64,000 bases of DNA from Oscillospiraceae bacterium (GTDB taxonomy: Bacteria; Bacillota; Clostridia; Oscillospirales; Acutalibacteraceae). Below, piece after piece: positions 10,973 to 27,799 of this stretch; the stretch's first letter is position 1; each line of letters starts with the position of its first letter. Location: positions 1,668 to 65,667 of the forward strand of contig SVOP01000001.1 in the NCBI GenBank assembly GCA_015066325.1, given 5' to 3'. Both the position numbers and the translations under genes were made by a program. The notes beneath the pieces are model-generated. The model saw only the letters and a program-made list of their open reading frames with translations, did not search any database and had not been told where the DNA came from.

Positions 10973-11004
10973 TTTGTCCACCTGCCTTTCAGTAATTTGC
11001 TATG

Positions 11005-11033: not shown

Positions 11034-11118
11034 TGTTTTGAAATAGGTGTTATGTATAAATTAGTTCAGATATAACAACTTCAATTGACCTTGCTTCAAT
11101 ATTTTGCATACGGCATAC

Positions 11119-11235: not shown

Positions 11236-11255
11236 ATTCCCCAATTTCAGTAATG

Positions 11256-11284
11256 TTGACATAACATAACTTTTGTGTTAAAAT
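11256..11284 (+). promoter_or_regulatory. Sigma-70-type promoter (extended -10) for the XRE/ASCH/HNH operon
   Basis: TTGACA (11256-11261), a 17-nt spacer, then TGtTAAAAT (-10 at 11279-11284). ATAACAT-type half-sites flank it (ATGTTGACATAACAT; ATGTTCTATGTAATATAACAT). Confidence 0.55.
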
Positions 11285-11322
11285 GTTCTATGTAATATAA
11301 CATATAACAAGGAGACAAAATA

Positions 11323-11706
11323 ATGCCCAAAAAGAACTTTGATAGCAAAAAGGAGCAAAAACAACAATTAGGAGCGATGTTGGCTCTTTGCAGAGGCAAA
11401 AGAAGTTTACGCGAAATTGCCCGTGCAATTGAAATTCCTGCATCAAATCTTAGTTATATTGAAAAAGGCATTAATGCTCCTAGCCCAGAAGTATACGAAA
11501 AAATCATCTTGGAATTGGAACCTTCCGATAAGAAGCGTCAAGAAATGGATGCTTTGTATAGCTGTATTAGAGATCTTCCACCACCTGATGTGTGCGAAAT
11601 ACTTGTTGCTAACAACGGACTCAATAATTCACTTCGTTTGCTCGGGAACAAACATGTTTCTAACGATATGCTTATACAAATCAACAAATTGTTTGCATCG
11701 TTATGA
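11323..11706 (+). CDS. XRE-family helix-turn-helix regulator (candidate regulator or antitoxin)
   Basis: HTH segment SLREIARAIEIPASNLSYIEKGINAPS. AAGGAGA SD. It lies 15 nt upstream of the 620-aa gene. Confidence 0.8.
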   Translation: MPKKNFDSKKEQKQQLGAMLALCRGKRSLREIARAIEIPASNLSYIEKGINAPSPEVYEKIILELEPSDKKRQEMDALYSCIRDLPPPDVCEILVANNGLNNSLRLLGNKHVSNDMLIQINKLFASL

Positions 11707-11721
11707 TAAGGGAGAAATAAT

Positions 11722-14779: not shown

Positions 14780-15088
14780 AAATACTACATAGCATCTATT
14801 CGTTATGCAAAATGGGAAACTGATTGAAAAAAATCACGTTATAACAGATGATTCGAATAGATAAAACATGTAGGTTTATAGACCATAGCAAATATTTTTA
14901 CACCAAATAAGATCCTTGAACTTTACCCAATTTATGCGTGGTTATGCAATGATCTCACTGCTTGAAAATGAGAGAAAAAATTGAGAATTTAAAAGTAATA
15001 ATATATTGTTTACATTTAGTCCTGTAAACCGAAAAGAAAAAATTATGAGCCTTCAGTGGTAAATAAATGAAAGCGTTGGAGAATAAAA

Positions 15089-16039
15089 ATGAATAATAAA
15101 ACTAAAAAGAAATACAAAATTGCAAATCAAGCAATTGATAGTGTTAATAGTATAAATAACAGTAGACAACCCAAGCCAGGTTTTCCAACAGTTTTTTTGT
15201 TAGCTTTTACTATTGTTTTTATCATTGTTGTGGTGACAGCACACTGTATTGAATCAATAAGCGAAAAATCTGTTGGTTTTTTATCAAATTTTATAACGAT
15301 TGTAATAACTATAATTATATTTTTTTATACGATCAATAACGAAAAACGTGAAGATTATAAATTAGCCAAAAAGAATGCCGCTATATTGGCACAATCATTA
15401 AATTCTATTATGGCTCAAATCACAATGATTAATAACGGAGAGCGATTTAATATTATTTATCCCTCAGAATTATTAGATTACTATCGCCAGTGTTCAGTAT
15501 ATTTAAAATATGAATACCTTGAGCCTATAATGAGTGAATTGAGTTTTGTAAATCGCATAAATTCTTGTATTGAAAAAAATGACGAAAGCCAAATACAAAT
15601 ATTAATAGATCACAGGAGAAAATGCTTATCTAGATGGAACGATGATTTTAACATTATTGAGGTTTCTTGTAATTTACATGCATTTTCACTAGAACAAGAA
15701 GAACAAAAACCATGGAAAGAACAAAAACAATACAAAGAATTCGACGAGTTTATTTTAAGTAATTATGAAAAGGATATTAAGAAAATTACTTTGAATCGGT
15801 TGAAAGAAATGGACGACGAATGCGATGAATCTATTATGGCAGATTATATTGCCGAACAGTTGTCTAAAGAAATTAAAAAGAAAAATCCAGAATTAACAAA
15901 ACTATTGTATGAAAACCGCGCGTTAACCAAAGCAATATTTAAAGTTTATCTTACTTTAGAGGATAAAGATGGATTTAAACTTTGTTGGGGAATACTATCA
16001 TTAAATAAAAAACAAGTATTGGATTCGAAGTCATCATAG
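15089..16039 (+). CDS. Hypothetical membrane protein (2 N-terminal TM helices plus a roughly 220-aa soluble domain)
   Basis: GGAGA SD. TM segments FPTVFLLAFTIVFIIVVVTAH and FLSNFITIVITIIIFFYTI. Very AT-rich codon usage. I recognise no family. Confidence 0.5.
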   Translation: MNNKTKKKYKIANQAIDSVNSINNSRQPKPGFPTVFLLAFTIVFIIVVVTAHCIESISEKSVGFLSNFITIVITIIIFFYTINNEKREDYKLAKKNAAILAQSLNSIMAQITMINNGERFNIIYPSELLDYYRQCSVYLKYEYLEPIMSELSFVNRINSCIEKNDESQIQILIDHRRKCLSRWNDDFNIIEVSCNLHAFSLEQEEQKPWKEQKQYKEFDEFILSNYEKDIKKITLNRLKEMDDECDESIMADYIAEQLSKEIKKKNPELTKLLYENRALTKAIFKVYLTLEDKDGFKLCWGILSLNKKQVLDSKSS

Positions 16040-16371
16040 CTTTTTTGAGTTTCTTTTTGAGTAATATCAATTAGCACAAGTACCAAATATAATTAAAATA
16101 TTAACCCTTATAATAGCACCAACTTTTGAGCTGTTTGATTGCGACAAAATTGCAAAAAAGCCAATCCAGAAGCAAAAGAGAGAAGAAAAGCATTAGGTGA
16201 ACTCGGCTTTAGTTTATCTGATGAGAAACTCATAGGTCATGATGGCACAGAATATATAAATTATTTTGTTTTACATAAGGATTCAACAAAGTAGTAGATT
16301 TAGTATTTTTAAGTAAAACTCCGACACAGGCAATGTTTTGCGGATATTTACTAAAATGAATTTTTAATTAG

Positions 16372-16400
16372 TTGACAACTCTTTTTAATAGAGTTACTAT
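16372..16400 (+). promoter_or_regulatory. Sigma-70-type promoter for the recombinase gene
   Basis: TTGACA (16372-16377), a 17-nt spacer, then TACTAT (16395-16400). Confidence 0.5.
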
Positions 16401-16409
16401 GCGAGCGAG

Positions 16410-17888
16410 GTGATACTTTTGACAGGCGTAATTTATGCGAGATATTCAAGTGATAATCAGCGTGAAGAGTCCATTGAAGGTCAATTGAGAGAGTGCAAGG
16501 TATTTGCCGAGAAAAATGGCATTGATGTTGTTGGTACATACATTGACCGAGCATTATCTGCCAAGACGGACAACCGTCCTGATTTCCAGAAGATGATTAA
16601 AGACAGTGTTAAAAAGCAATTCGATTGTGTTATTGTCTGGAAGCTTGACCGATTTGCTCGTAACCGTTACGATTCTGCTCATTATAAAGCTATTCTTCGC
16701 AAAAATGGTGTTCGTGTTTTATCTGCAACCGAAGCAATTTCACAAGGTGCAGAAGGTATCATTCTTGAATCGGTTCTGGAAGGTATGGCTGAATACTATT
16801 CAGCAGAACTTGCAGAAAAGGTTATCCGAGGTCAGACCGAAAATGCTTTGAGCTGCCGTTTTAATGGTGGTACAATTCCTATCGGTTACAAAATAAATAA
16901 AGATCGGAAATTTGAAATTGATAACGAAACAGCACCCTATGTTTTATCAGCTTTCAAAATGTACGAAGATGGTATGACGATGCAGGAAATTGCAGATGAA
17001 CTAAATGTCAAAGGTATTCGTAATACTCGTGGTACAAAATTAAATATCAACACTGTTTCTAACTTGTTGTCAAACAGAAGATATATGGGCGAGTATTATT
17101 ATCGTGATATTGTGATTTCCGATGGCATACCCGCTATTGTTCCAAAAGATTTGTTCCTGCGTGTTCAAGAAAGGATAGCTAAAAACAAAAATTCACCTGC
17201 ACGATACAGAGCAGATGAACAATATATTTTATCTACCAAGTTATACTGTGGTAAGTGTATGACTTTTATGGTTGGTGAAAGCGGTACTGCAAGGAACAAA
17301 AATACATATCGTTATTACAAGTGCTTATCTGCAAAACGCAAGCGTGGTTGCGATAAGAAAGCAGTTAAAAAAGACTGGATTGAAAATCTCGTTATAAACC
17401 AAATCATTCGTGTTATATGGGATGATAATCTGATTGAAGATATAACCGATATGGTTATGGACTTGCAGAAAAATGAAAACAATGTTCTTCCTCTTCTCAA
17501 AAAGAGACAAAATGAAATTAACAAAGGTATTTCAAATATCCTTTCCGCAATCGAACAGGGCATATTCACACCATCAACAAAGGAACGCCTTGAAGATTTA
17601 GAGAAACAAAAACGAGAAATCGAAATACAAATTGCAGAAGAAAGCATTGCAAGACCGATGCTTGACCGTGACCAGATTAAATTTTGGTTTCACCGTTTCA
17701 GAAAAATGGATGCATCGAAGCCTGAAAACCGAAGAAGATTGGTTGACAGCTTTGTGAATTCAGTGATTTTATATGATGACAGAATTGAGTTTTATTTCAA
17801 CTTCAAAAAAGGTGCAAAAAGCCTTTCTTTAGAAGATTTGGAAAAAGGTTCGGATACGCTTGATTCACTCCCACCAAAAAAGAACTAA
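16410..17888 (+). CDS. Large serine recombinase (resolvase catalytic domain, recombinase domain and zinc ribbon)
   Basis: GVIYARYSSDNQREESIEGQ contains the catalytic Ser motif. Also VWKLDRFARN, and a Cys cluster YCGKC...YYKC...GC. The likely true start is TTG at 16419, 5 nt after GAGGTGA. Confidence 0.9.
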   Translation: MILLTGVIYARYSSDNQREESIEGQLRECKVFAEKNGIDVVGTYIDRALSAKTDNRPDFQKMIKDSVKKQFDCVIVWKLDRFARNRYDSAHYKAILRKNGVRVLSATEAISQGAEGIILESVLEGMAEYYSAELAEKVIRGQTENALSCRFNGGTIPIGYKINKDRKFEIDNETAPYVLSAFKMYEDGMTMQEIADELNVKGIRNTRGTKLNINTVSNLLSNRRYMGEYYYRDIVISDGIPAIVPKDLFLRVQERIAKNKNSPARYRADEQYILSTKLYCGKCMTFMVGESGTARNKNTYRYYKCLSAKRKRGCDKKAVKKDWIENLVINQIIRVIWDDNLIEDITDMVMDLQKNENNVLPLLKKRQNEINKGISNILSAIEQGIFTPSTKERLEDLEKQKREIEIQIAEESIARPMLDRDQIKFWFHRFRKMDASKPENRRRLVDSFVNSVILYDDRIEFYFNFKKGAKSLSLEDLEKGSDTLDSLPPKKN

Positions 17889-17910
17889 GCGAAAGCTTAG
17901 TTCTTTTTTT
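17881..17910 (+). terminator. Rho-independent terminator of the recombinase gene
   Basis: AGAACTAAGC-GAAA-GCTTAGTTCT (10-bp stem, GAAA loop) followed by TTTTTT. The stop codon lies inside the stem. Confidence 0.7.
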
Positions 17911-18130
17911 ATCCATTGCGAAAGCAATGGCATATCATCAAGGGCGACTTGTCGCCCTTGTATCTCATCAGTCCGTCAGGACTGTATATCATCACACCTT
18001 TAGGTGTGTATCAAAAATGCTTTCGCAATGATGATATACAACGGTTAGCACCGTTGATGATATCCACGGCGTTGCCGTGATGATATGCAATTCCTTGCGG
18101 AATTGATTATATACAATGCTTCGCATTGAT
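17911..18130. repeat. Mirrored array of 9 variable mini-hairpins separated by a conserved 12-nt spacer (TGTATATCATCA, then its complement TGATGATATACA)
   Basis: Read directly from the sequence. See the finding for the unit-by-unit parse. Confidence 0.6.
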
Positions 18131-18154
18131 TTCAACAAAAATATGTGTTACAAT
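18126..18154 (+). promoter_or_regulatory. Candidate promoter for the 18178 gene
   Basis: TTGATT (18126-18131), a 17-nt spacer, then TGtTACAAT (-10 at 18149-18154). It overlaps the last unit of the hairpin array. Confidence 0.45.
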
Positions 18155-18177
18155 TTTGTTGAAAAGGAAGTGATATT

Positions 18178-18522
18178 ATGCCTAAGAACTATTTGCTTAT
18201 TTATTCAGAACAACTTGCAACTGATATCGCATTGTTGTGTCAAAGCATTAAAGCACCAAGCAACACTATTTTCCAAATTCAAAAAAGTTCAAGCAGTGTT
18301 TACGCAAATATTCGTGAAGCAAATTATGGTCAAAGTAAGGCAGATATGCTTTCTAAATTCGAAATAGCACTAAAAGAATGTAGCGAAACGGAAGGTTGGC
18401 TACAATTATTATTTAATACCAACGCTATTGATGAAGATACATATAAAAAACATAGAAATCTTTGTGGCAGAATCAGACGAATGCTGATTTCAAGTTGTAA
18501 AACGTTAAAAGAAAAGATTTAA
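18178..18522 (+). CDS. Four-helix-bundle protein (23S rRNA intervening-sequence protein family)
   Basis: REANYGQSKADMLSKFEIALKECSETEGWLQLL matches the family signature (EA..s..DF..K..IA.KE..ET..WL.L). Confidence 0.75.
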   Translation: MPKNYLLIYSEQLATDIALLCQSIKAPSNTIFQIQKSSSSVYANIREANYGQSKADMLSKFEIALKECSETEGWLQLLFNTNAIDEDTYKKHRNLCGRIRRMLISSCKTLKEKI

Positions 18523-18546
18523 TTTTTAACTAAAGGTGGTGAGGCT

Positions 18547-19242
18547 TTGTTTAGTTTTTTTAGAAAAACAAGAGAAAAAATAACGCCCATAGACTTAAAT
18601 AATCCTGATGCAGTAGTAACTGTTATCAACTGTCGCCACTCTAAAAATCCTTTTGGTAAAAACTATCGAGGTTGTTGTGAAATTCAAGAAGAATATTTTA
18701 CTTCAGTTTGTTTTCAGACAATTGATGGAAATGATATGCTTTATGAACAGCCGCACCATTGTTTTGTGAACTTTTCAACTCCAAAAGCATATCCATATAA
18801 ATTATGGGTAGGGCGTAAAATAGAACTTTACGAAGGTAAAATTCATGTTGGCACAATGGTTGTTGAAGAAATTAAAAATTCTATTCTTGATCGCAATACG
18901 AAATTTGAAAATCAAGATAATATTTTAGAAAACTATAAAGTTTTAAATCTTGCTTTAAAGCGCTCGTTGGAGTGGGGCAAAAAATATGTAATACCACTTG
19001 ATAATAAACTGTTGAAATCATTACCTACACTTTCGGGAACAGATATTGAAAAAATATCAAAATATGTTATTCAAGTAAGGGACGATATTCTTTGGAAAAT
19101 CTATTATCCAAATTGGGATGTAAAAGAAGGCGTCTTGAAAATTGATGCTAAAAAAGCCGTGTCTGAAAAATATTCTTGGATTAATAAAGATAATTTAGCT
19201 TCATTAGATTCTCAAGGGAAGTATTATGCTTGGCACGGTTAA
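18547..19242 (+). CDS. Hypothetical protein
   Basis: Long ORF with a GGTGGTGAGG SD. I recognise no motif. Confidence 0.45.
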   Translation: MFSFFRKTREKITPIDLNNPDAVVTVINCRHSKNPFGKNYRGCCEIQEEYFTSVCFQTIDGNDMLYEQPHHCFVNFSTPKAYPYKLWVGRKIELYEGKIHVGTMVVEEIKNSILDRNTKFENQDNILENYKVLNLALKRSLEWGKKYVIPLDNKLLKSLPTLSGTDIEKISKYVIQVRDDILWKIYYPNWDVKEGVLKIDAKKAVSEKYSWINKDNLASLDSQGKYYAWHG

Positions 19243-19278
19243 ATAATTCTCTGGACTTATAACAGTTTCTGTGCATAA

Positions 19279-19488
19279 TTGTTGTTACCAAAAAAGAAAG
19301 GTGGCAATAATATGAGTAAAGAAGAATTGCAGAAAGAAATTTGGTTTTTATATAGACTTTGGTATAGATACTATCTTATCTATACTTTTCTTCGCGAGAA
19401 CAAACGAGAATTAGAGTTAGTATCAAAACTGCAGGAAAAACAAAATGAGCTTTTACGGCTTATTGATTTTGCAAAAGACCAACTTTAA
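19279..19488 (+). CDS. Small hypothetical protein (the internal ATG at MSKEELQ is the likely start)
   Basis: AAAGGTGG SD before the ATG at 19312. Its 3' end is duplicated at 20283-20354. Confidence 0.35.
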   Translation: MLLPKKKGGNNMSKEELQKEIWFLYRLWYRYYLIYTFLRENKRELELVSKLQEKQNELLRLIDFAKDQL

Positions 19489-19520
19489 GTTGGCATCTAA
19501 ATTGTTCGTAACAACCAAAA
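19420..19520 (+). repeat. Direct repeat copy A (about 100 bp; 3' end of the small ORF plus palindrome CCAACTTTAAGTTGG)
   Basis: Aligns with 20286-20386 with 8 mismatches by hand alignment. Followed by a terminator-like hairpin and T-run (19522-19550). Confidence 0.8.
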
Positions 19521-19554
19521 ACCGACAAGCACTTGTTTGTCAGTTTTTTATTTG

Positions 19555-19644
19555 TGTCCTGCGGACATAAAATGAAGTTGCCTTACGGCAAATGATGTGG
19601 CATTGCCATTGAAGTGCTTACGCAACGAGGTGTGCCTGACGGCA
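19555..19644. repeat. Second cluster of five TGCC/GGCA-type mini-hairpins with purine-rich 6-8-nt spacers
   Basis: TGTCC-TGC-GGACA, TTGCC-TTAC-GGCAA, TGGCA-T-TGCCA, TGC-TTAC-GCA and TGCC-TGAC-GGCA, read directly from the sequence. Confidence 0.5.
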
Positions 19645-19808
19645 ACGGAGTTACACTTATGACAAACGAGTTTAATTTGTAGGAAAAACGGTGTAATATC
19701 AACCAGCAAGGATAGTAACAATCCAAACAATACCTTTTATTTTTTCACCTACCTATGTATAATTAAATCAGCAAAAAAACTTAATGCAAGAATGTAGAAA
19801 GGAAAGAT

Positions 19809-20216
19809 ATGAAAATGAAAAACAGCATAGGTGAAAGAATTGCCTACCATAGAAAAATGAATGCAATGACACAGGAGGAGCTTGCCGGGAAGTTGAATGT
19901 TTCTACTCAAGCCGTTTCGAAATGGGAACAAAAAATTTCTTCGCCTGATATTACGCTTTTGCCGGAAATTGCAAGTGTTTTTTCTATTAGTATCGATGAA
20001 TTGTTCGGAAAGAAAGTTGATAGGGAACCCGTGTTTAATTTAGTTGATAATGTTCCGTGGGACGATGACAGAAAAATACGAATTGCAGTTTATCATGGCA
20101 AAAAACTTATGCAACAATCAACACATCAACTTCAAAAAGGAACAAATAAAATAAATGTTCATTTTGACTATGGTGAAGTTTATAAAATACATGGTGTTTG
20201 TAATTTGAATTTATAA
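19809..20216 (+). CDS. XRE-family HTH transcriptional regulator
   Basis: IGERIAYHRKMNAMTQEELAGKLNVSTQAVSKWEQKISSPDITLLPEIASVFSISIDELFG is the canonical Cro/C1 HTH. Confidence 0.8.
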   Translation: MKMKNSIGERIAYHRKMNAMTQEELAGKLNVSTQAVSKWEQKISSPDITLLPEIASVFSISIDELFGKKVDREPVFNLVDNVPWDDDRKIRIAVYHGKKLMQQSTHQLQKGTNKINVHFDYGEVYKIHGVCNLNL

Positions 20217-20285
20217 AAAATTCTTTCATGTTGAACAAAAAGTTATTAAAAATTTGTTAGTAGTACAAAAACCCTCGAAGAGATG

Positions 20286-20386
20286 GTATCAAAATTACAG
20301 AAAAAGCAAAATGAGCTTTTACGGCTTATTTATTTTGCAAAAGCCCAACTTTAAGTTGGCATCTAAATTGTTCGTAACAGCCAAGA
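20286..20386 (+). repeat. Direct repeat copy B (encodes only a 23-codon remnant, MVSKLQKKQNELLRLIYFAKAQL)
   Basis: See copy A. Followed by terminator hairpin GCAGACA...TGTCTGC and a T-run (20389-20425). Confidence 0.8.
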
Positions 20387-20552
20387 AAAGCAGACATCCA
20401 ATAGGGTGTCTGCTTTTCTTTTGTTTGAAAAAAGTAAAGGTGGATTCGAACCACATTATGGTCTTTTTGAGTGGGTTAATATTTCCTTGTGTTTATTCTA
20501 AAAAAGTAGTATAATTAATAAAAAGGCACATAAAAATACGAGAGGTGATTTT

Positions 20553-21932
20553 ATGAGCATACAAAATTTAATTGCACAGTATAAAGAGAATAAAAATGGC
20601 ATAAGCCATTGTACCTTTAATCCTGAAGGGCCGGGAGTTGTCAGAATTCACCTTGTTCCGCCTAAATTTAAATTGTTTGGTGATAGGGCATACATAGTTA
20701 TTTTAAACGGTTACTATATGTTACCGTTGGGTTATTCCTGGGCTTTGTTGCTTTCTAATTTTATGAAAGAGGTAAATGCCTTTGCAGGTAAGCCCATAAA
20801 CGAAAACGATGAAGAGACTATTTTTAAAAGCACAATTAATAAAACATCAGCAGTTTATCCTTCTATGAGCAAAGAGGATATCGAAGAGGATCTGGAATTT
20901 ATTTTGCGGGTTCTTTTTGCAGTTGCAAGAGGGGACGACCCTGAAATCGAAATTGAAAAGCTTTCCATTCGACAATACGGAAAGAATATGACTGCACCTC
21001 ACAGAATGGATTTGTTAGTCAGTGCAATGACTGATGCAGAAGGTAAATGGCAGTGTAATCAGAAATGCAAATTTTGCTATGCAGCAGGTCAATGCAAGGG
21101 TCAGACTAACGAATTGGGAACGGATGAATGGAAAAAGATTATTGAGGTGCTTTATAAAGCCAATGTTCCTATGGTTACCTTTACAGGAGGGGAGCCAACA
21201 ATGAGAGCTGATATTGCTTCTCTTGTTGCCCATGCAGAAAAAATGGTAACCCGACTTAACACCAATGGAATTAATTTAACTCCCGATTTGGTTAATGAGC
21301 TTAAAAAAGCAGGTCTTGACAGTGTTCAGGTCACTCTTTATTCTCACGATGAAGCGATTCATAATGAGCTTGTTGGCGGTGAACATTTTAAAGATACGGT
21401 AAACGGCATAAAAAATGCGGTAAAAGCAGGACTTGATGTGAGCGTTAATACCCCTCTTTGCAAAAAGAATTCGGATTATATAAAAACACTTGAATTTATA
21501 AAATCTCTTGGTGTAAGCTTTGTTACAATCAGCGGTCTTATCTGCACGGGTATGGCGGAAATCAATCACGAAGAATATGATCTTTCGGAAGAAGCCTTGT
21601 TTGATATTGTTAAGGAAGCAAAAATGTTCTGCACAGTAAATGAAACAGAAATTGATTTTACCTCACCCGGTCTGATTGCAAAAGAACGGTTAGAGTCAAT
21701 CGGTATGAATGTTCCGATGTGCGGTGCGGCTCTGAGCAATATGGCAGTTGCACCTGACGGTACAGTGGTTCCCTGTCAGAGCTGGCTAAATTCTGACGCG
21801 AATTTAGGGAATATACTCAAAGATAAGTTTTCTGATATATGGAAAAACAAAAAATGTGTTGAATTAAGAAATATGACCGAGGAAGAAGCCTTGAATTGCC
21901 CATTCAGAAAAAGTGAGGTGATGGGGAAATGA
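20553..21932 (+). CDS. Radical SAM / SPASM-domain protein with a roughly 165-aa N-terminal extension
   Basis: CNQKCKFCYA is the CX3CX2C cluster. Also GGEPTMR, and a C-terminal Cys-rich SPASM-like region (PMCGAALSNMAVAPDGTVVPCQSW...C...CPF). Confidence 0.85.
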   Translation: MSIQNLIAQYKENKNGISHCTFNPEGPGVVRIHLVPPKFKLFGDRAYIVILNGYYMLPLGYSWALLLSNFMKEVNAFAGKPINENDEETIFKSTINKTSAVYPSMSKEDIEEDLEFILRVLFAVARGDDPEIEIEKLSIRQYGKNMTAPHRMDLLVSAMTDAEGKWQCNQKCKFCYAAGQCKGQTNELGTDEWKKIIEVLYKANVPMVTFTGGEPTMRADIASLVAHAEKMVTRLNTNGINLTPDLVNELKKAGLDSVQVTLYSHDEAIHNELVGGEHFKDTVNGIKNAVKAGLDVSVNTPLCKKNSDYIKTLEFIKSLGVSFVTISGLICTGMAEINHEEYDLSEEALFDIVKEAKMFCTVNETEIDFTSPGLIAKERLESIGMNVPMCGAALSNMAVAPDGTVVPCQSWLNSDANLGNILKDKFSDIWKNKKCVELRNMTEEEALNCPFRKSEVMGK

Positions 21933-22981
21933 GAGCTAAAAAGGATAAAAACGATTATTCTGCAAAAACTATAGAAAATCGCAGAAAATTTCCCGTGAGA
22001 AACACAGTGATAATTGCAGTTTGCGTAGTTGTTCAGATAGTTTTAATTTTTTTGGCAGTAACTGCAAAAGCAGAGCCTCAGGATGTTATTGAAAAATACA
22101 CTGTTACCGTTGAGCCGTTGGAAGACGGCACGCTTGACATTGAATATTCTTTCTTGTGGAAAGCTATTGACGAAGCAGAGGAGCTTACCTGGGTTGATAT
22201 CGGTATGGCAAACGCCTCTTTCTCCATATACGAGGAGTCAATTTCCGGAAATATAAAGGAATGTTCTGCAATATATGATGATGGTTATACGGGGGTAAGG
22301 CTGGATTTTCAAAGAGGCTATAAAGGCGGAGAAAACCTAAAGTTTTCCTTTAAGGTGAATCAGCAATATATGCTTTGTAAGGATATGGACAGTTACTTTT
22401 ATGAGTTTGTTCCTTGCTGGTTTAACAGTACCCCTGTGGAAAATTATGAGTTCAGATGGAAAAAGTCCGCCACTTCTTTCGGAGCAGACGGAGCAAATCT
22501 TAAAAACGGTTATTATACCTGGAACGGTAGCTTTGATTGCGGAGAATATGAAATAATGCAGGTTTCTTATGACCTTACTGCTTTTTCAGGGGTTGAAACT
22601 GTTGAATATGAGCCCTTTATGACTAACGGTGCATATAATCAGCTTGCAGAAGACCGAGCTATAAAAATAGGTGTTTTTTGCGTTGTAATTATAGGTATTC
22701 TGATTGGAGAAATTTATCTTTTAGACAGTCACGTTTCATATCGTAGAGGAAGGGGCTTCCTTGTTGGTTACGGACACCCCATACATACCTACGGCTATCA
22801 GAATCCCAGATACATAAAGGCATATAACAGAGCTCACACCTCTACTTCATCAGGTCAGGGTGGCGGTTTCCGTGGCGGTGGATGCGCCTGCGCCTGTGCT
22901 TGTGCTTGTGCCGGTGGCGGTAGAGCAGGATGCGGTCAGAAGGACACATACACAAATATCGAACGAATAAAAAAATATTAA
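21929..22981 (+). CDS. DUF2207-like two-TM membrane protein with a C-terminal Gly-rich / (Cys-Ala)5 tail
   Basis: ATGA overlaps the radical SAM gene. IEKYTVTVEPLEDGTLDIEYSF resembles the DUF2207 N-terminal domain. The tail reads SSGQGGGFRGGGCACACACACAGGGRAGCGQ. Confidence 0.55.
   Translation: MRAKKDKNDYSAKTIENRRKFPVRNTVIIAVCVVVQIVLIFLAVTAKAEPQDVIEKYTVTVEPLEDGTLDIEYSFLWKAIDEAEELTWVDIGMANASFSIYEESISGNIKECSAIYDDGYTGVRLDFQRGYKGGENLKFSFKVNQQYMLCKDMDSYFYEFVPCWFNSTPVENYEFRWKKSATSFGADGANLKNGYYTWNGSFDCGEYEIMQVSYDLTAFSGVETVEYEPFMTNGAYNQLAEDRAIKIGVFCVVIIGILIGEIYLLDSHVSYRRGRGFLVGYGHPIHTYGYQNPRYIKAYNRAHTSTSSGQGGGFRGGGCACACACACAGGGRAGCGQKDTYTNIERIKKY
22883..22912 (+). repeat. Imperfect hexanucleotide repeat (TGYGCY)x5 encoding (Cys-Ala)5
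   Basis: The sequence reads TGCGCC TGCGCC TGTGCT TGTGCT TGTGCC. Confidence 0.9.
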
Positions 22982-23171
22982 AAGATTTAACAACCGATGC
23001 TCACGAAAGGGTTTCGGTTGTTTCTCTTTTTGCGTCCGTTTAATATTTCGGAAAGATATAATCAATAAGTTTGCTTGCAGTTTTTTGTTGAAAACGGCGT
23101 ATTGAGAAAAAATGTATATTATAGTAAAATTATAACGTATGACGATTAATTTTGCGGAGGTCGTTTTTTGT

Positions 23172-26100
23172 ATGAAAAAACATTTGAAGCGTATATCAGT
23201 TTTATGCATTTGCGTAACATTGCTTATAGTCAGCCTCTTAACCCCTGTGGCAGCTGCCTCATCGGGAGTTTACGAGCTCACCTTTGACAATCTTTTTATT
23301 TTTGAGCAATGGGCAAATCATCCGAATTTAAAGGTTTATGCAGGTGATTCTTCCACAAGCAGCACATTAACCACTGATATTGAAAACGGTAGCTTTGTGC
23401 TTACTAACAATACTTCTGCAACAGAGGTTTTTACAACCTTTTCTATGAGTTCGGTAGGTGCGTTTTATTCAATGCCTGTTGAGGAGAATACAGAATATAT
23501 ATTTTCTTATGTTGCTAACGGAACAACAACCAATTTTGAGACCTTTGTGTTCTATTTTGATGAATCCGGACAATACACAACCCATGAAGCAAAGAACGCA
23601 TATCAATACGGCCTTAATGAATGGAGCTTTACAACACCTGAAAATACTGGTTATATTCAGGTAAGATTTGATAACAATTCTCCCAATTCTGATGTAACGG
23701 TTTCCGGTATAAGAATACGCTCCAAAGAGGTTTATGAATTTGCTAAGGATTCGGATTATCGTAAAACATTTACATATTCTGCAGGCGCCACATACGGAGC
23801 ACTTCCTGTTCCCGAAAGAGAAAATCTTGTTTTTGCAGGTTGGTTCACAGAATCTGACGGAACCGGTGAAAGAATTACTTCAAGCACCCCTGCTTCACCT
23901 GCAAGCAGATGTCTTTTTTCTAAATGGGACCCCATTGTAGCTGGTGATTTGAGCATTGTTTCGTTACCAATTAAACTGGAATATTGCGTTGGCGATAAAC
24001 TTGACACACGGGGGTTGGTTATCGGTGTTACATACCCTGACGGAATAAGCGAAAACATTGACGAAGGCTTTACTTGTTCACCTGAATATTTAACAACAGC
24101 AGGCACACAGACTGTTACAGTTACTTATGGTGGCAGTTCCGCAGAATTCGATGTAACCGTTAAAAATTCAGATAGCTATAATTTGTTGTTAAACAATGCA
24201 CAATACCCCGTAACAGTAGCAAAGAATACATATACCCTTAATTATAGCGGAACAGCCTTTAACCGCTATGTGATAAAATATTCCTCCGATGCTTATGTTA
24301 AAGGAGAGTTGAATTTTAACGGAACCATCGAAGAGTTTTTCTTGGAGCCGGCAGAAAACGGAGAGTTCTCAGGATATATTGACGGATTTCTTGTAGGAAC
24401 AACTCAAACTGCAATTACCAATATAACATTTAAGCCTCTTGATAAAGAGTTTATGGATTTCACATTTGATTCCTTAGCTTTAAGTAAGGAATCTGCACTT
24501 GGCGATGCTTCAGGTATGGTTTACCTTTCAAGCTCAGATTATAAAATCGGTATAGACTTGGATTGGGGTGGTGCTCTTACTTATCTTGAGGATTTATCAA
24601 ACGATGTTGTAGCGTCACAGAAAAGGAAGCTTATCGGAACAAATAATAATCCTGTGGAGGTTGGTTTATCCTCTGATTATGAGGATTCCACTTTCACAAA
24701 GTATAACAGAATATCCAATGTAAACTTAATCAATGCCCACGATACAGGCAGACTTGTTCAGCAGTCTTATTACGGAACCGGTTCTTATCCTTATGAGCCG
24801 GGTATGTATGGTGAAACTGTCTGGAATTATAACCCTGTTCAGGGCGGTAACCTTTATAACGAAGCAAGTAAAATTGTTGATATAAAAGTAACAGATAATC
24901 AAATTTATATTAAATGCCGTCCTCTTGACTGGGCAAAAGAAGCGAAGGATATAACCCCATCATATATGGAAGCCTGGTACACACTTGAAGACGGATTAAT
25001 GAGAGCAACCTGCAGATTTGTGGATTTTTCAGGCTATCCTGCAGTTACAACAACACAGGAGGTTCCTGCGTTTTACTGCGTTGAGCCTCTCAATAATTTC
25101 GTGTATTATGCGGGCGGTGAAGCTTGGACGGACAGCAACACAAAAGTGACCTTGCCGGATTTGGATTTCTGGGGAACGGCAACCGACCAGGATTACCAAT
25201 GTAATGAGAATTGGGCTGCATTTATCGGCGATGGTTCAAGCGGATACGGTATAGGCTTATACACTCCCGGTCAGACTCTTTATCACCCCGGTGTTTATCA
25301 GAGAGATACATTGAAATCTTTGGATGATGATAACAATCAACCGGCAGCAAATCACGATTCCACATCATACATCGGTGTTGTTGATACGCTTTATTTCCGG
25401 AGTTACAGCCCCATTTCCTATTGCTACTACATAACAACAGGTAATGTGGATACAATCCGCAGCAATTTCAAAACTCTTGCACAGACTGAAGAAGATATCT
25501 GCAATGCAACCAATACAAACGGGTTCTGTGATATGTGCGGTAAACCCGTTGCCCCCGAGCTTAATGAAAACAATGTTTATGAAATTTCAAATGCAGGCGA
25601 GCTTTATTGGTTCAAAGAGGCTGTAAACAACGGGAATGTTAATGCAAATGCAGTTTTGGTTTGCGATATTACAGATAACAGCGGTGTTCTTACAGAATAT
25701 GGTGTTTTGGCAAGTGATACATCCTCTTTCAGAAAATGGACACCTATAGGTTCTTCAACAAATAAATATAACGGTAATTTTGATGGTCAGGGCTATACAA
25801 TAAACGGACTTTATATGTATGATTCTGCACTCTCTTACGGTGGTCTTTTCGGATATACCGGTTCAAATGCAATAATAGAAGAGGTTGGTGTTGATTATTC
25901 GTATTTCAACGGCAATCAGTATATAGGCGGAATTTGCGGCAGAAACGAAGGTAAAATTAAAAATTGTTATTCATTCTATACAATGATTCAGGGAAATTCG
26001 TATGTAGGTGGTATAACAGGCTATAATTCCGGTACGCTTCAGAACTGCTATAATGCAGGTCTTGTAAACGCAATAAGCTATGTGGGCGGTGTTGCGGGTT

Positions 26101-26330
26101 ATAAAACCAGTACATCAAGCGTATCAAATTGCTACTATCTTGAAAATGCTGTAACAGACGGCTCGGGAACTGCCGATAATAATATCGGCTCACCAAAAGC
26201 TATTGAAGAATTTGCGAGCGGTGAAGTGGCATATTTGTTGCAGAGCGGAAACTCAGAGCAGCTCTGGGGACAAAAAACAACTGCAAAAGGTTCCGGTCCG
26301 ATATTCGATAAAGCGGTATTTTTAAGGTGA
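23172..26330 (+). CDS. Large secreted or surface protein (Listeria-Bacteroides repeat, Big_3-like Ig domain, central unknown domain, C-terminal GLUG repeats)
   Basis: Signal peptide MKKHLKRISVLCICVTLLIVSLLTPVAAA. Also YGALPVPERENLVFAGWFTESDGTGERI, LEYCVGDKLDTRGLVIGVTYPDG...TQTVTVTYGG, and repeated YVGG(I/V)(C/T/A)GY GLUG-type motifs. The track ORF begins at 23139, but the ATG at 23172 follows GGAGG. Confidence 0.7.
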   Translation: MKKHLKRISVLCICVTLLIVSLLTPVAAASSGVYELTFDNLFIFEQWANHPNLKVYAGDSSTSSTLTTDIENGSFVLTNNTSATEVFTTFSMSSVGAFYSMPVEENTEYIFSYVANGTTTNFETFVFYFDESGQYTTHEAKNAYQYGLNEWSFTTPENTGYIQVRFDNNSPNSDVTVSGIRIRSKEVYEFAKDSDYRKTFTYSAGATYGALPVPERENLVFAGWFTESDGTGERITSSTPASPASRCLFSKWDPIVAGDLSIVSLPIKLEYCVGDKLDTRGLVIGVTYPDGISENIDEGFTCSPEYLTTAGTQTVTVTYGGSSAEFDVTVKNSDSYNLLLNNAQYPVTVAKNTYTLNYSGTAFNRYVIKYSSDAYVKGELNFNGTIEEFFLEPAENGEFSGYIDGFLVGTTQTAITNITFKPLDKEFMDFTFDSLALSKESALGDASGMVYLSSSDYKIGIDLDWGGALTYLEDLSNDVVASQKRKLIGTNNNPVEVGLSSDYEDSTFTKYNRISNVNLINAHDTGRLVQQSYYGTGSYPYEPGMYGETVWNYNPVQGGNLYNEASKIVDIKVTDNQIYIKCRPLDWAKEAKDITPSYMEAWYTLEDGLMRATCRFVDFSGYPAVTTTQEVPAFYCVEPLNNFVYYAGGEAWTDSNTKVTLPDLDFWGTATDQDYQCNENWAAFIGDGSSGYGIGLYTPGQTLYHPGVYQRDTLKSLDDDNNQPAANHDSTSYIGVVDTLYFRSYSPISYCYYITTGNVDTIRSNFKTLAQTEEDICNATNTNGFCDMCGKPVAPELNENNVYEISNAGELYWFKEAVNNGNVNANAVLVCDITDNSGVLTEYGVLASDTSSFRKWTPIGSSTNKYNGNFDGQGYTINGLYMYDSALSYGGLFGYTGSNAIIEEVGVDYSYFNGNQYIGGICGRNEGKIKNCYSFYTMIQGNSYVGGITGYNSGTLQNCYNAGLVNAISYVGGVAGYKTSTSSVSNCYYLENAVTDGSGTADNNIGSPKAIEEFASGEVAYLLQSGNSEQLWGQKTTAKGSGPIFDKAVFLR

Positions 26331-27799
26331 ATGCTGTTACCAATGAAGATAATTATGTTTTGGTTGGTATCGGTGATATTGATGAGGATGATGATGTAGA
26401 TGTAATTGACTATCAGCAGCTTGTTAATAAATCCCTTTCAGGCAAGTCCTTTGAATATAAAGATTTGTTGAGTGCAGATATTGATTACGATGGTTATCTG
26501 GATGTTATAGATTGTTCACTTATGCAGCTGATAATAACCGGTCAATTTAATAAGGTTGATGTTTATTTGAAGGGCGATTTTGATTGCGACGGAATACCCT
26601 TTACACAGGAGGATATAAAGGCTATTAAGCACGGCCTTGTCAACCGGGATAAATTAAATACAAGGCAGAAATATGCATGCGATTTGAATTTTGATGGCGT
26701 TCTTGATATTAACGACAGAGATGTTTTAATCGAGCAAGGTGAAAATAATAAAAATCCATTCTTTACAAATATGGAGGAAGCAATCGGATTAAGAAGCGAA
26801 AAGGCAAATGTTATTATACTTTGCGGTCAATCCAATGCTTACGGTGCAAGTCCGTTAACGCAAGCGGTTCGTGATTCGGTTGGTAACACCGATTTCTCAA
26901 ATATTAAAATTAAATATAATAACATTAATACATACGACGGAACAAATTGGTCAACGCTTTTTTCCAACAACAGTTTTGAACAATTTCGTTTAGGTATAGG
27001 CGGTCAGGCTGATATGTGGTTCGGTCCTGAAGTGGGGCTTTCATATTACCTTGCAACAAATGAAGAAACCAAAAATGAAAAGTGGTATATTATCAAATAT
27101 ACCGCGGCGGGGACTTATCTTGGCGGTGACTGGTTGTATGACACCAGCGGAAAATATCTGAATCAGGCAAACAGCCAGAATATCTATAATTCTTTGGGTG
27201 GATATTTAGCGGATTTGATGATTCCTTATGTAAATACTGCTCTTGATGAAATTGTGAATATTCATGGTGCCGGTAATATTAACATCCGCTCATTTATGTG
27301 GATGCAGGGCGAAAGTGATTCTTTGGTTAAAGAATGGGCTGACCAATATGGCGATTTGCAGAATATTCTTGTAAACCGAGTTCGCACAGAGTTTGAACCA
27401 AGAGATACAGATTCTCAAATCGGTTTTGTTGATGGTGCTATCGCCGCATATAACAGCACAACCTTTGTTAATCCTCAAGCTAATAATGCAACTCAAACCT
27501 ATAACAGTTGGGTTTATTCTGATACTGTTAACACCAATAAATCCAATAATGCATCCCTTTGGTATGTGCCTGCGGTAACAAGCAGAAATGTTATAAATAA
27601 AACGAATGCAGGACTTTATACCAATGCGTCAACATCATCAAATAAGCTTTCTGACTCAATTTGGATTGATACATCTACCTGCAAATCCAAGTTAGAAAAC
27701 AATGTTGAAAACGGTGAATATGACGGCGCTCATTACTGCGGTGATTCTATGTTTAAAATAGGTCAATGGTTTGCCTACGGAATGATGCAGGTTTCGTAA
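26327..27799 (+). CDS. Tandem dockerin modules plus an SASA/DUF303-type carbohydrate (sialate-type) O-acetylesterase domain; no signal peptide of its own
   Basis: Four Ca-binding loops (DIDEDDDVDVID, DIDYDGYLDVID, DFDCDGIPFTQED, DLNFDGVLDIND), then ILCGQSNAYGAS (GQSN esterase motif). The GTG start overlaps the upstream stop (GTGA). Confidence 0.7.
   Translation: MNAVTNEDNYVLVGIGDIDEDDDVDVIDYQQLVNKSLSGKSFEYKDLLSADIDYDGYLDVIDCSLMQLIITGQFNKVDVYLKGDFDCDGIPFTQEDIKAIKHGLVNRDKLNTRQKYACDLNFDGVLDINDRDVLIEQGENNKNPFFTNMEEAIGLRSEKANVIILCGQSNAYGASPLTQAVRDSVGNTDFSNIKIKYNNINTYDGTNWSTLFSNNSFEQFRLGIGGQADMWFGPEVGLSYYLATNEETKNEKWYIIKYTAAGTYLGGDWLYDTSGKYLNQANSQNIYNSLGGYLADLMIPYVNTALDEIVNIHGAGNINIRSFMWMQGESDSLVKEWADQYGDLQNILVNRVRTEFEPRDTDSQIGFVDGAIAAYNSTTFVNPQANNATQTYNSWVYSDTVNTNKSNNASLWYVPAVTSRNVINKTNAGLYTNASTSSNKLSDSIWIDTSTCKSKLENNVENGEYDGAHYCGDSMFKIGQWFAYGMMQVS

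What the first reader, a model, noticed from the sequence alone, without database searches (positions are those of the whole stretch)
20553..22981. Radical SAM/SPASM enzyme translationally coupled to a DUF2207-like membrane protein whose cytoplasmic tail carries (Cys-Ala)5 in place of the usual poly-Gly
SEEN IN SEQUENCE:
- The 459-aa radical SAM protein has CNQKCKFCYA plus a Cys-rich SPASM-type C-terminus and an extra roughly 165-aa N-terminal domain.
- It overlaps by ATGA a 350-aa protein with this predicted layout: basic N-terminus inside, TM1, a roughly 200-aa external domain (IEKYTVTVEPLEDGTLDIEYSF...), TM2, and a roughly 85-aa cytoplasmic tail ending in ...SSGQGGGFRGGGCACACACACAGGGRAGCGQKDTYTNIERIKKY.
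- The (CA)5 is encoded by an imperfect hexanucleotide repeat (TGCGCC x2, TGTGCT x2, TGTGCC).

ESTABLISHED KNOWLEDGE: SPASM-domain radical SAM enzymes modify Cys/Ser-containing peptide or protein substrates (sactipeptide and ranthipeptide thioethers, anSME formylglycine, SCIFF and others) and are normally encoded next to their substrate. As I recall it, DUF2207/TIGR04222-type membrane proteins typically end in Gly-rich or Gly/Cys-rich tails of unknown function.

INFERENCE: The Cys-Ala tail of a full-length membrane protein, rather than a small RiPP precursor, may be the substrate of the coupled maturase, and the predicted topology places the tail in the cytoplasm where the enzyme works. The N-terminal extension could be the substrate-recognition domain. 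The hexamer repeat could also vary in length between strains. I do not recognise this pairing as a described system.
Basis: partly seen in the sequence, partly recalled or inferred. Interest (0 to 1): 0.65.

Follow-up and report, generated by a model that had tools for sequence, protein, structure and literature searches.

The report
Radical SAM enzyme paired with Cys-Ala-tailed membrane protein
A radical SAM enzyme and a membrane protein whose inner tail ends in an almost invariant Cys-Ala repeat form an undescribed two-gene unit found in hundreds of gut and rumen anaerobes; the enzyme most likely modifies that tail chemically, which would be the first such modification of an integral membrane protein.

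Summary
A 459-aa radical SAM gene (20553-21932) overlaps by ATGA a 350-aa membrane protein gene (21929-22981) whose tail reads ...GGG-(CA)5-GGGRAGC-GQKD...

The pairing is not chance:
- In 80 genome loci seeded with the membrane protein, all 78 evaluable ones carry the enzyme next to it.
- In 80 metagenome loci seeded with the enzyme's own N-terminal domain, all 55 evaluable ones carry the membrane protein directly downstream.
- No third gene is conserved.

The core peptide CACACA-GGGRAGC is kept across proteins only 26-34% identical elsewhere. It is encoded by 120 different DNA versions in 126 instances, so selection acts on the peptide, not on a DNA repeat.

The enzyme has the layout of peptide maturases. 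Its best structural matches are SkfB and SuiB over the full length, and its N-terminal domain has an RRE-like topology. It lacks the canonical 7-Cys SPASM motif.

The membrane protein reaches no Pfam or NCBIfam threshold, though relatives score just below the DUF2207 cut-off. I found no paper on the pair.

Most likely the enzyme modifies the cytoplasmic Cys-Ala tail, plausibly with thioether cross-links. The chemistry is untested. Strain-level repeat-length variation is not supported. I rate it a new variant of a known kind.

The parts
20383..20420 (+). Terminator hairpin of the preceding unit; marks the left boundary of the cassette.
   Evidence: Terminator-like site with 17 pairs followed by a T run. 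Synteny with the closest relatives starts at about 20478-20542.
20487..20549 (+). Putative promoter and ribosome-binding site: TTGTGT, 17 nt, TATAAT at 20510-20515, then GAGAGGTGAT at 20540-20549.
   Evidence: Read by eye. The consensus scan did not call it because the -35 is weak. Inferred.
20553..21932 (+). Radical SAM enzyme, 459 aa, with a peptide-maturase-like layout.
   Evidence: ORF. Pfam Radical_SAM plus SPASM. Best PDB sequence hit is SkfB, E 4e-20. Foldseek top matches are SkfB and SuiB.
20553..21047 (+). N-terminal domain (aa 1-165), specific to this subfamily. Conserved motifs are H-[CT]-T-x-N-P-x-G-P-G-V-V-R-I-H-L-V-P-P and A-P-H-R-M-D-L. It is the candidate substrate-recognition (RRE-like) domain.
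   Evidence: Invariant columns H19, T21, P24, G28, H33, P36, N52, G53, P58, P149, H150, R151, D153. Model topology is four strands then three helices. No Pfam or PDB sequence match.
21054..21077 (+). CX3CX2C motif (C168, C172, C175), the ligands of the radical SAM [4Fe-4S] cluster.
   Evidence: Sequence. 100% conserved in 75 relatives.
21720..21899 (+). Abridged SPASM/Twitch-like C-terminal region (aa 390-449): C390-x12-G-x4-C408, C435, C449. No CX2CX5CX3C.
   Evidence: Pfam SPASM at 42.6 bits. Cys conservation.
21929..22981 (+). Membrane protein, 350 aa, translationally coupled to the enzyme by the ATGA overlap. GAGGTGAT lies upstream.
   Evidence: The family has 2918 hits at E<=1e-3.
21995..22063 (+). 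N-terminal hydrophobic helix (aa 23-45): a signal anchor, or a signal peptide with an AKA|E cleavage-like site.
   Evidence: AF2 helix 23-45. Distant members have a classical signal peptide here. Cleavage is inferred.
22076..22633 (+). Extracytoplasmic beta-sandwich domain (aa ~50-235).
   Evidence: pLDDT is mostly above 90. Foldseek matches ribophorin I/OST1 and the N-domain of M1 aminopeptidases. Relatives give sub-threshold PF09972 hits.
22640..22744 (+). Transmembrane helix 2 (aa 238-272 in the model).
22745..22882 (+). Cytoplasmic linker (aa 273-318). It holds the clade-specific RGRGFLxGYGHxxHxYGxxNPxY motif and a Gly-rich stretch.
   Evidence: Alignment A1. Lachnospiraceae-type relatives have a zinc-ribbon segment in its place.
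22883..22912 (+). (Cys-Ala)5 run, C319-A328: the candidate modification site.
   Evidence: The CA run directly before GGGRAGC is 5 units in 157 of 195 members, 4 in 12, 6 in 24 and 7 in 1.
22913..22945 (+). GGGRAGC-G-Q-K-D, the most conserved element of the family (consensus GGGRAGC-[ST]-x-K-[DN]). It is the candidate recognition motif and contains a Cys-x3-Asp spacing.
   Evidence: Exact GGGRAGC in 195 of 200 members. 126 instances are encoded by 120 distinct 39-nt DNA versions.
22989..23031 (+). Hairpin plus T run after the stop codon (AACAACCGA, 16 nt, TCGGTTGTT, TCTCTTTTT): the likely terminator of the two-gene operon.
   Evidence: Read. The scan did not call it because the loop exceeds 8 nt. 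Metatranscriptome contigs stop at 22941.

Best explanation
This is a self-contained two-gene cassette.

The second gene encodes a membrane protein with an external beta-sandwich domain and a disordered cytoplasmic C-terminal tail. That tail ends in (Cys-Ala)n-GGGRAGC-[ST]-x-K-[DN].

The first gene encodes a cytoplasmic radical SAM enzyme built like a peptide maturase. It has an N-terminal recognition-type domain, a radical SAM core and one abridged SPASM/Twitch-type auxiliary-cluster region.

Proposed mechanism (inferred):
1. The enzyme docks on the invariant GGGRAGC-[ST]xK[DN] segment through its N-terminal domain.
2. It uses the 5'-deoxyadenosyl radical to modify the adjacent Cys-Ala run after translation.
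3. The most likely chemistry is Cys-derived thioether cross-links: sactionine-type links to an alpha-carbon such as Ala, and/or a ranthionine-type link across the conserved C-x3-[D/N] spacing.
4. This turns a flexible tail into a rigid or chemically new structure that the membrane protein needs for its still unknown function.

Shown here:
- the obligate pairing and co-inheritance;
- protein-level purifying selection on the tail motif;
- the domain layout and the topology;
- absence from curated families.

Inferred:
- that the tail is the substrate;
- the role of the N-domain;
- the type of chemistry.
For: 1. Pairing seeded from the membrane protein: in 80 genome loci, 78 have a ~450-480-aa homologue of this rSAM directly adjacent, nearly always upstream and overlapping. 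The other 2 loci are cut inside the membrane gene.
2. Pairing seeded from the enzyme: using only its N-domain motifs, all 55 metagenome loci with at least 180 bp downstream encode the membrane protein right there.
3. No third conserved gene: the best neighbour cluster occurs in 12 of 78 loci.
4. Co-inheritance: pairwise identities of the two proteins correlate at r = 0.91. Eggerthellaceae copies have Lachnospiraceae/Oscillospiraceae-type nearest neighbours for both genes, so the cassette moves as a unit.
5. Tail conservation: GGGRAGC is exact in 195 of 200 members, while ectodomains fall to 26-34% identity. The 39-nt core has 120 DNA versions in 126 instances and uses all Ala and Arg codons. 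Strain variants are synonymous.
6. Variable context: the linker before the motif varies widely in length and content (a zinc ribbon in some members), and 0-198 residues follow the motif. The tail therefore behaves as a portable peptide module.
7. Multi-site appearance: distant members repeat C-A-C-[AV]-S-S units upstream, which resembles a multi-site core. One locus has two tail proteins flanking a single enzyme.
8. Enzyme type: the best PDB sequence hit is the sactionine synthase SkfB (E 4e-20). Foldseek tops are SkfB (439 aligned columns) and SuiB (429-459 columns), which means the N-domain is included.
9. Compartment: the tail is cytoplasmic, where an oxygen-sensitive, SAM-dependent enzyme works (established knowledge).
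10. Expression: a gut metatranscriptome run has contigs over 20670-22941 only, including one across the gene junction.
Against: - There is no biochemical evidence for any modification.
- The N-domain shows no sequence similarity to PqqD/RRE families, and its strands have low model confidence (pLDDT 44-57).
- The enzyme's HMM scores against every curated maturase family lie far below the cut-offs, and the best scores go to NirJ2, MoaA and AhbD-type enzymes, which are not peptide maturases. The chemistry cannot be read from homology.
- A CxCxCxCxC tail could equally bind metal or an iron-sulfur cluster.
- No stand-alone short peptide carrying the motif was found that would tie it to classical RiPP logic. 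The short hits I looked up (10 of the ~27 retrieved) are singleton fragments on short contigs.
- The metatranscriptome evidence rests on assembled contigs and could include DNA.
Confidence: 0.58

Rival explanations
1. The tail is not a substrate. It is a metal- or iron-sulfur-cluster-binding or docking element. The membrane protein then acts as partner, anchor, scaffold or regulator for the radical SAM enzyme, whose real substrate is something else: a small molecule, a membrane lipid, a cofactor assembled on the tail, or another protein.
For: - Six invariant Cys in CxCxCxCxC...C spacing are typical metal ligands (established knowledge; motif).
- The enzyme's best curated-family scores go to cofactor enzymes (NirJ2, MoaA, AhbD).
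- A lipid-modifying enzyme, GDGT-MAS/Tes, is the second-best PDB sequence hit and an NCBIfam hit for relatives.
- Strict co-occurrence fits a complex just as well as an enzyme-substrate pair.
Against: - Metal binding does not explain the strict invariance of Ala between the Cys residues, nor of GGGRAGC-[ST]xK[DN].
- The full-length structural matches are peptide maturases with N-terminal recognition domains.
- The similarity to GDGT-MAS covers only the radical SAM core, residues 165-295.
- The tail sits at a very variable distance from the membrane, which is odd for a fixed docking geometry.
Confidence: 0.25
2. The membrane protein is a carrier or precursor. The tail is modified and then cleaved off, releasing a small Cys-rich product in the manner of a ribosomally made natural product with an unusually large 'leader'.
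For: - The enzyme has a maturase-type layout.
- The tail is a portable C-terminal module.
Against: - No protease or transporter gene is conserved next to the pair.
- The tail is cytoplasmic, while the conserved, well-folded domain is outside the cell.
- The ectodomain itself is conserved, with many invariant residues. That argues for a function of the whole protein.
Confidence: 0.07
3. The Cys-Ala run is a by-product of a slippage-prone DNA hexamer repeat (a contingency locus or low-complexity drift), and the adjacency of the two genes has no functional meaning.
For: - The run is encoded by an imperfect hexanucleotide repeat in the window.
- Repeat number differs (4-7) between distant clades.
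Against: - 120 distinct DNA versions encode the identical 13-residue core in 126 instances.
- All 37 full-length relatives at 71% identity or more have exactly five units.
- Strain variants are synonymous.
- Adjacency holds in 78/78 and 55/55 evaluable loci.
Confidence: 0.02

Closest known systems
SkfB/SkfA and other sactipeptide systems (AlbA/subtilosin, Trn, StsB)
   Same: - The enzyme layout matches: an N-terminal recognition domain, a radical SAM core and a C-terminal auxiliary-cluster domain that in SkfB is abridged (Twitch-type).
- The substrate is Cys-rich.
- The enzyme gene is next to the substrate gene.
- SkfB is the best sequence and fold match.
- Ala is a known sactionine acceptor in thuricin CD (from my own knowledge).
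   Different: - The putative substrate here is the C-terminal tail of a 310-500-aa membrane protein, not a short exported peptide with an N-terminal leader.
- No protease, transporter or immunity genes accompany it.
- The TIGR04403 score is 79.8 bits against a cut-off of 300.
- The chemistry is untested.
SCIFF peptides with their maturase (CteB / Tte1186 type)
   Same: - Both involve a very strongly conserved Cys-rich segment of unknown function.
- Both pair it with one dedicated radical SAM enzyme, widely spread in anaerobic Clostridia.
- CteB is among the PDB sequence hits (5wgg, E 9e-9).
   Different: - SCIFF is a free peptide of about 45 aa, and its enzyme has a full SPASM domain with two auxiliary clusters.
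- Here the module is fused to a membrane protein and the 7-Cys motif is incomplete.
- No SCIFF-system family appears among the 25 best NCBIfam matches shown, and every family shown scores far below its cut-off.
QhpD/QhpC and anaerobic sulfatase-maturating enzyme (anSME)
   Same: These are precedents for SPASM-type radical SAM enzymes that act on Cys of a full protein in the cytoplasm rather than on a small natural-product precursor. QhpD makes Cys-to-Asp/Glu thioethers, and a conserved C-x3-[D/N] spacing exists here. anSME appears among the fold matches.
   Different: - The substrates of those enzymes are soluble proteins exported after modification.
- The sulfatase motif C-x-[PA]-x-R is absent from the tail (sequence).
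- anSME matches only weakly by sequence (E 1.3e-4).
DUF2207 (PF09972, YciQ-type) membrane proteins
   Same: - Both have an external N-terminal beta-sandwich followed by a membrane segment and a Gly-rich C-terminal tail.
- Relatives give sub-threshold PF09972 hits (best 23.0 bits against 24.4).
   Different: - The window protein has no Pfam hit at all.
- The family has one membrane helix after the ectodomain.
- It carries the (CA)n-GGGRAGC tail and an obligate radical SAM partner. To my knowledge neither is a feature of DUF2207, but I did not test that here.

Membership tests
Radical SAM superfamily (PF04055) | CX3CX2C cluster motif and a match to the core HMM above the gathering score | tested here: met
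   C168-x3-C172-x2-C175, 100% conserved. PF04055 scores 87.8 bits against a cut-off of 29.5.
SPASM subgroup of radical SAM enzymes | C-terminal 7-Cys motif CX9-15GX4C ... CX2CX5CX3C ... C, which binds two auxiliary [4Fe-4S] clusters | tested here: not met
   PF13186 matches (42.6 bits against 21.5) and C390-x12-G-x4-C408 is present. CX2CX5CX3C is absent; only C435 and C449 follow. An abridged, Twitch-like domain with probably one auxiliary cluster fits better (inference).
RiPP-type peptide maturase with an RRE | N-terminal PqqD-like recognition element (three strands plus three helices) that binds the substrate peptide | tested here: inconclusive
   The model shows strands 18-22, 30-35, 46-50 and 55-59, then helices 61-75, 84-101 and 107-125. 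SkfB and SuiB align over 429-459 columns. The strands have low pLDDT, and neither the profile-vs-PDB search nor the Pfam scan finds any RRE. Binding is not testable here.
Sactipeptide / ranthipeptide system | Cys sulfur to alpha-carbon (or beta/gamma-carbon) thioether formed on a ribosomal peptide | not testable with these tools
   This needs mass spectrometry or NMR. The only support is homology to SkfB and the Cys-rich tail.
Sactipeptide / ranthipeptide system | A short precursor peptide with a leader, usually with protease and transporter genes nearby | tested here: not met
   The motif sits at the end of a 310-500-aa membrane protein. No conserved third gene was found. The short motif-bearing hits I looked up (10 of the ~27 retrieved) are singleton fragments.
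Any curated NCBIfam radical SAM equivalog (NirJ2, MoaA, AhbD, PqqE, SkfB, WgkB and others) | Whole-protein score above the curated cut-off | tested here: not met
   The best is TIGR04055 at 120 bits against 500. All of the best 25 families shown (of 71 matched) lie far below their cut-offs, for the window protein and for three distant relatives.
DUF2207 (PF09972) | Match to the N-terminal domain HMM above the gathering score | tested here: not met
   The window protein has no hit at E<=10. The best relative scores 23.0 bits against 24.4 (E 1e-4), and 4 others have E 0.014-0.03. Remote homology is plausible. The fold is a ribophorin-I-like beta-sandwich.
anSME / sulfatase maturation | Substrate motif (C/S)-x-(P/A)-x-R | tested here: not met
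   No Cys in the tail has P/A at +2 and R at +4 (sequence).
Known anti-phage defence systems (PADLOC) | Match of the components to a defence-system model | tested here: not met
   There is only generic radical-SAM-core similarity to viperins (55.6 bits). The membrane protein has no hit.

The most novel reading that the evidence does not exclude
A radical SAM enzyme covalently remodels the cytoplasmic Cys-Ala tail of an integral membrane protein, for instance into a ladder of thioether rings or a protein-derived cofactor or metal site. This would be a post-translational modification class not yet seen on membrane proteins. It would be carried as a mobile two-gene unit by hundreds of gut and rumen anaerobes, human gut species included.
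Probability: 0.5. Interest if true: 0.8.

Novelty: new variant of a known kind. Interest (0 to 1): 0.64.

Why it matters
- Radical SAM maturases are known for small peptides and for a few soluble proteins. A dedicated enzyme for the tail of a membrane protein would widen the range of known targets.
- It would give a first functional handle on a large unannotated family: 2918 sequence clusters for the membrane protein and at least 580 metagenomic loci for the enzyme's N-domain.
- The family is common in gut and rumen Clostridia and has spread to Eggerthellaceae. It is also seen in MAGs labelled Victivallales and Saccharibacteria.
- The tail motif is short, invariant and easy to express as a fusion, so the hypothesis can be tested directly by mass spectrometry.
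- It may also shed light on the puzzling Gly/Cys-rich tails of DUF2207-type proteins.

Tried and rejected
- **Curated families.** Pfam, NCBIfam and PADLOC scans of the membrane protein, for the window and for distant relatives, gave no family.
- **N-domain.** A profile of the enzyme's N-domain against PDB sequences, and each member against Pfam, gave only noise.
- **Literature.** Searches for the motif GGGRAGC, for DUF2207 plus radical SAM, for CACACACA plus radical SAM plus thioether, and two broader term sets found nothing relevant.
- **Third gene.** I looked for a conserved protease, transporter or regulator. There is none. The upstream HTH gene is not part of the unit, because synteny starts only at about 20480.
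- **Free peptides.** A search of 1.84 billion representative proteins with the 40-aa tail gave 96 hits. I retrieved 27 of the short ones. Many read as C-terminal fragments of family members or begin inside the TM helix. The 10 I looked up are singleton or two-member clusters; nine lie on contigs of 0.5-2.8 kb (P0336 reaches 15.9 kb), and two cluster with full-length 328- and 425-aa members. One equals the frameshifted tail of L049. The full-length (~300-445 aa) hits and the two long low-identity hits (P0241, P0282) were not retrieved.
- **Contingency-locus idea.** Rejected.
- **Loci without the tail.** L049 and L074 seemed to lack it, but the motif lies just downstream in another frame. These are frameshifts or assembly errors.
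- **Other readings considered and dropped by inspecting the sequence:**
  - the glycyl-radical motif (R-V-x-G-[YFW] has different spacing from R-A-G-C);
  - C-terminal sorting signals (no hydrophobic segment follows the motif);
  - the sulfatase motif.


Full report
**What is there**

The window holds two same-strand ORFs: 20553..21932 (459 aa) and 21929..22981 (350 aa). The stop of the first overlaps the start of the second in ATGA. A GAGGTGAT ribosome-binding site precedes each start.

A strong terminator hairpin lies upstream at 20383-20420. A hairpin with a T run follows the second stop at about 22989-23031 (read by eye). The pair therefore looks like a stand-alone bicistronic operon.

Synteny with the six closest genome relatives begins at about 20478-20542 and continues downstream. 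Nothing upstream is shared. The HTH gene and the serine recombinase upstream are therefore not part of the unit.

In one gut metatranscriptome run, assembled contigs cover 20670-22941 and nothing in the flanks. One 589-nt contig crosses the gene junction. This is weak evidence of co-transcription, since contigs can contain DNA.

**The enzyme**

- Pfam finds Radical_SAM (168-305, E 1.2e-24) and SPASM (390-448, E 7e-11). Residues 1-165 match nothing.
- No NCBIfam model comes near its cut-off. The best is NirJ2 at 120 bits against 500. This holds for the window protein and for three distant relatives.
- Public sources call the protein only 'radical SAM protein'.
- Against solved structures, the best sequence hit is the sactionine synthase SkfB (E 4e-20). 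GDGT-MAS, SuiB, BtrN and PqqE follow.
- The AlphaFold2 model is of moderate quality (mean pLDDT 67). Its best Foldseek matches are SkfB (439 aligned columns) and SuiB (429-459 columns). That is essentially full length, so the N-terminal domain is included.
- The N-domain is predicted as four short strands followed by three helices, the order seen in peptide-recognition (RRE) domains. The strands have low confidence, and a profile of the domain finds no RRE in PDB or Pfam. I call this RRE-like by topology only.
- The domain is strongly conserved, with the motifs H-[CT]-T-x-N-P-x-G-P-G-V-V-R-I-H-L-V-P-P and A-P-H-R-M-D-L.
- Across 75 diverse relatives the conserved Cys are the CX3CX2C triad plus C303, C360, C390, C408, C435 and C449. 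CX12GX4C is present, but the CX2CX5CX3C block of a canonical SPASM domain is missing. The C-terminal region is better described as abridged SPASM or Twitch-like, probably with one auxiliary cluster (inference).

**The membrane protein**

It has no Pfam or NCBIfam hit, even at E<=10. It belongs to a large family: 2918 clusters at E<=1e-3.

The AlphaFold2 model (mean pLDDT 78) gives:
- helix 23-45;
- a confident beta-sandwich at 52-214;
- helix 238-272;
- a disordered tail from 304.

The sandwich resembles ribophorin I/OST1 and the N-domain of M1 aminopeptidases. Five of eight distant relatives give sub-threshold hits to the DUF2207 N-terminal domain (best 23.0 bits against 24.4, E 1e-4). 'DUF2207-like' is therefore a fair description of remote similarity, but membership is not met.

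Distant members start with a classical signal peptide, then have the ectodomain, a single TM helix and the tail. This independently fixes the topology as ectodomain outside and tail inside.

**The tail**

- In the best 120 homologues (45-98% identical) the segment G-CACACACACA-GGGRAGC-S-Q-K-D is nearly invariant.
- Over 200 family members, 195 carry GGGRAGC exactly. The CA run directly before it has 5 units in 157 members, 4 in 12, 6 in 24 and 7 in 1. The following residues are [ST]-x-K-[DN] in almost all.
- The exceptions are near-variants (SGGRAGC, AGGRAGC, and SSGRAGC in L116 and L148), truncations, or two loci where the motif lies just downstream in another frame.
- Lachnospiraceae-type members are only 26-34% identical in the ectodomain. 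They have a zinc-ribbon segment in the linker and extra C-A-C-[AV]-S-S units upstream, but they keep the same terminal motif.
- At the DNA level, 126 instances of the 13-residue core are encoded by 120 different 39-nt sequences that use all Ala and Arg codons. Strain variants seen in metagenomes are synonymous.
- Selection is therefore on the peptide. The hexamer repeat in this window is incidental, and the idea of strain-level length variation is not supported.
- A search of 1.84 billion representative proteins with the 40-aa tail found 96 hits. I retrieved only the 27 short ones. Many read as C-terminal fragments of family members, and the 10 I looked up are singleton or two-member clusters, nine of them on contigs of 0.5-2.8 kb. 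The ~300-445-aa hits were judged by length and match position only, and two long low-identity proteins (P0241, P0282) were not examined. I saw no sign of a separate class of free peptides.

**The pairing**

- Seeding from the membrane protein in one genome per species: 191 relatives were found and the best 80 kept. Of these, 78 have a 450-480-aa homologue of this enzyme directly adjacent (E 1e-105 to 1e-282). It is nearly always upstream and overlapping, twice downstream, and once 1.3 kb away. The other two contigs end inside the membrane gene.
- Seeding from the enzyme's N-domain motifs alone in metagenomes: 580 relatives were found and the best 80 kept. All 55 loci with at least 180 bp after the enzyme gene encode the membrane protein right there. 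The other 25 are cut.
- No third gene is conserved.
- Pairwise identities of the two proteins correlate at r = 0.91. The Eggerthellaceae copies have Lachnospiraceae/Oscillospiraceae-type nearest neighbours for both genes, so the cassette travels as a unit.
- One locus has two tail proteins flanking one enzyme.
- Carriers are gut and rumen anaerobes: Acutalibacteraceae, Oscillospiraceae, Lachnospiraceae, Eggerthellaceae, and MAGs labelled Victivallales and Saccharibacteria. They include human gut metagenomes. MAG binning errors cannot be excluded for the odd phyla.

**Interpretation**

The evidence shows a conserved functional unit of one maturase-like radical SAM enzyme and one membrane protein. 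The only universally conserved cytoplasmic element of that protein is the Cys-Ala/GGGRAGC tail. The most economical reading is enzyme and substrate: recognition of the invariant GGGRAGC-[ST]xK[DN] segment, then radical chemistry on the neighbouring Cys-Ala run.

Thioether formation is my leading guess, for three reasons:
- the closest characterised relative, SkfB, makes a Cys-to-alpha-carbon link;
- the invariance of Ala between the Cys residues is better explained by steric or acceptor roles than by metal binding;
- the conserved C-x3-[D/N] spacing recalls Cys-Asp thioethers made by other enzymes of this class (my own knowledge).

These points are inference, and the chemistry could be something else entirely.

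The main rival is that the tail binds a metal or an iron-sulfur cluster, or merely docks the enzyme, whose substrate lies elsewhere. Strict co-occurrence cannot separate these two readings. Mass spectrometry after co-expression would.

**Comparison with what is known**

The system works like a sactipeptide, SCIFF or QhpD-type enzyme-substrate pair, but it fails the membership tests for each:
- no short leader-bearing precursor;
- no accessory genes;
- no curated family reached;
- an incomplete SPASM motif.

It also fails the HMM threshold for DUF2207. I found no curated model and no paper describing it. I therefore rate it a new variant of a known kind: a radical SAM maturase with a membrane-protein tail as its likely target. 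Its side claims are corrected: repeat-length variation is not supported, and the SPASM and DUF2207 labels are imprecise.

Noticed in passing
window 19413-19521 and 20279-20387: A 109-nt direct repeat (91% identical, 866 nt apart) brackets the HTH_3 regulator gene at 19809-20216. The second copy runs into the terminator hairpin at 20383-20420. It looks like a duplication or insertion scar around the HTH gene.
   Followed up: partly
window ~15000-20450: This block is strain-specific and absent upstream of the cassette in the six closest relatives. It holds a large serine recombinase (16410-17888; Resolvase, Recombinase and Zn_ribbon_recom domains), a 23S rRNA-intervening-sequence-type protein (18178-18522), two proteins with no family, and the HTH repressor. 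It is probably an integrated mobile element or its remnant.
   Followed up: partly
window 23139-27799: Directly downstream lie a 1063-aa surface protein with Big_3, GLUG and Listeria-Bacteroides repeat domains, and a 490-aa protein that combines a dockerin with a SASA-type carbohydrate esterase. This points to a cellulosome-type, fibre-degrading Oscillospiraceae/Acutalibacteraceae host. The large protein is syntenic in close relatives.
   Followed up: no
window ~10800-11800: GC skew changes sign from negative to positive, and gene orientation switches from the minus strand to the plus strand, at about 11-12 kb. This could be a replication origin or terminus, or just a divergent gene boundary.
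   Followed up: no
L122: 369-1628 (-) and 3235-4482 (+): Two paralogous tail-bearing membrane proteins flank a single radical SAM gene in one rumen metagenome contig.
   Followed up: partly
L047, L056, L062, L066, L076, L116, L148 (cytoplasmic linker): Lachnospiraceae- and Eggerthellaceae-type family members carry a CxxC...CxxC zinc-ribbon segment (Zn_ribbon_3, E 3.7e-4) between the TM helix and the Cys-Ala tail. The Oscillospiraceae clade has the RGRGFLxGYGHxVHxYG motif there instead.
   Followed up: partly
window 22934-22936 (residue 336): The window protein has Gly where nearly all relatives have Ser or Thr directly after GGGRAGC (GCGQKD against GCSQKD). Its 98%-identical relative P0001 has Ser.
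   Followed up: no
window 19983/20551, runs X1 and X5: Metagenome contigs from two faecal samples join position 19983 (inside the HTH gene) to 20551 (two bases before the enzyme's start codon) through 21 unrelated bases. This suggests an alternative upstream arrangement in co-occurring strains.
   Followed up: no
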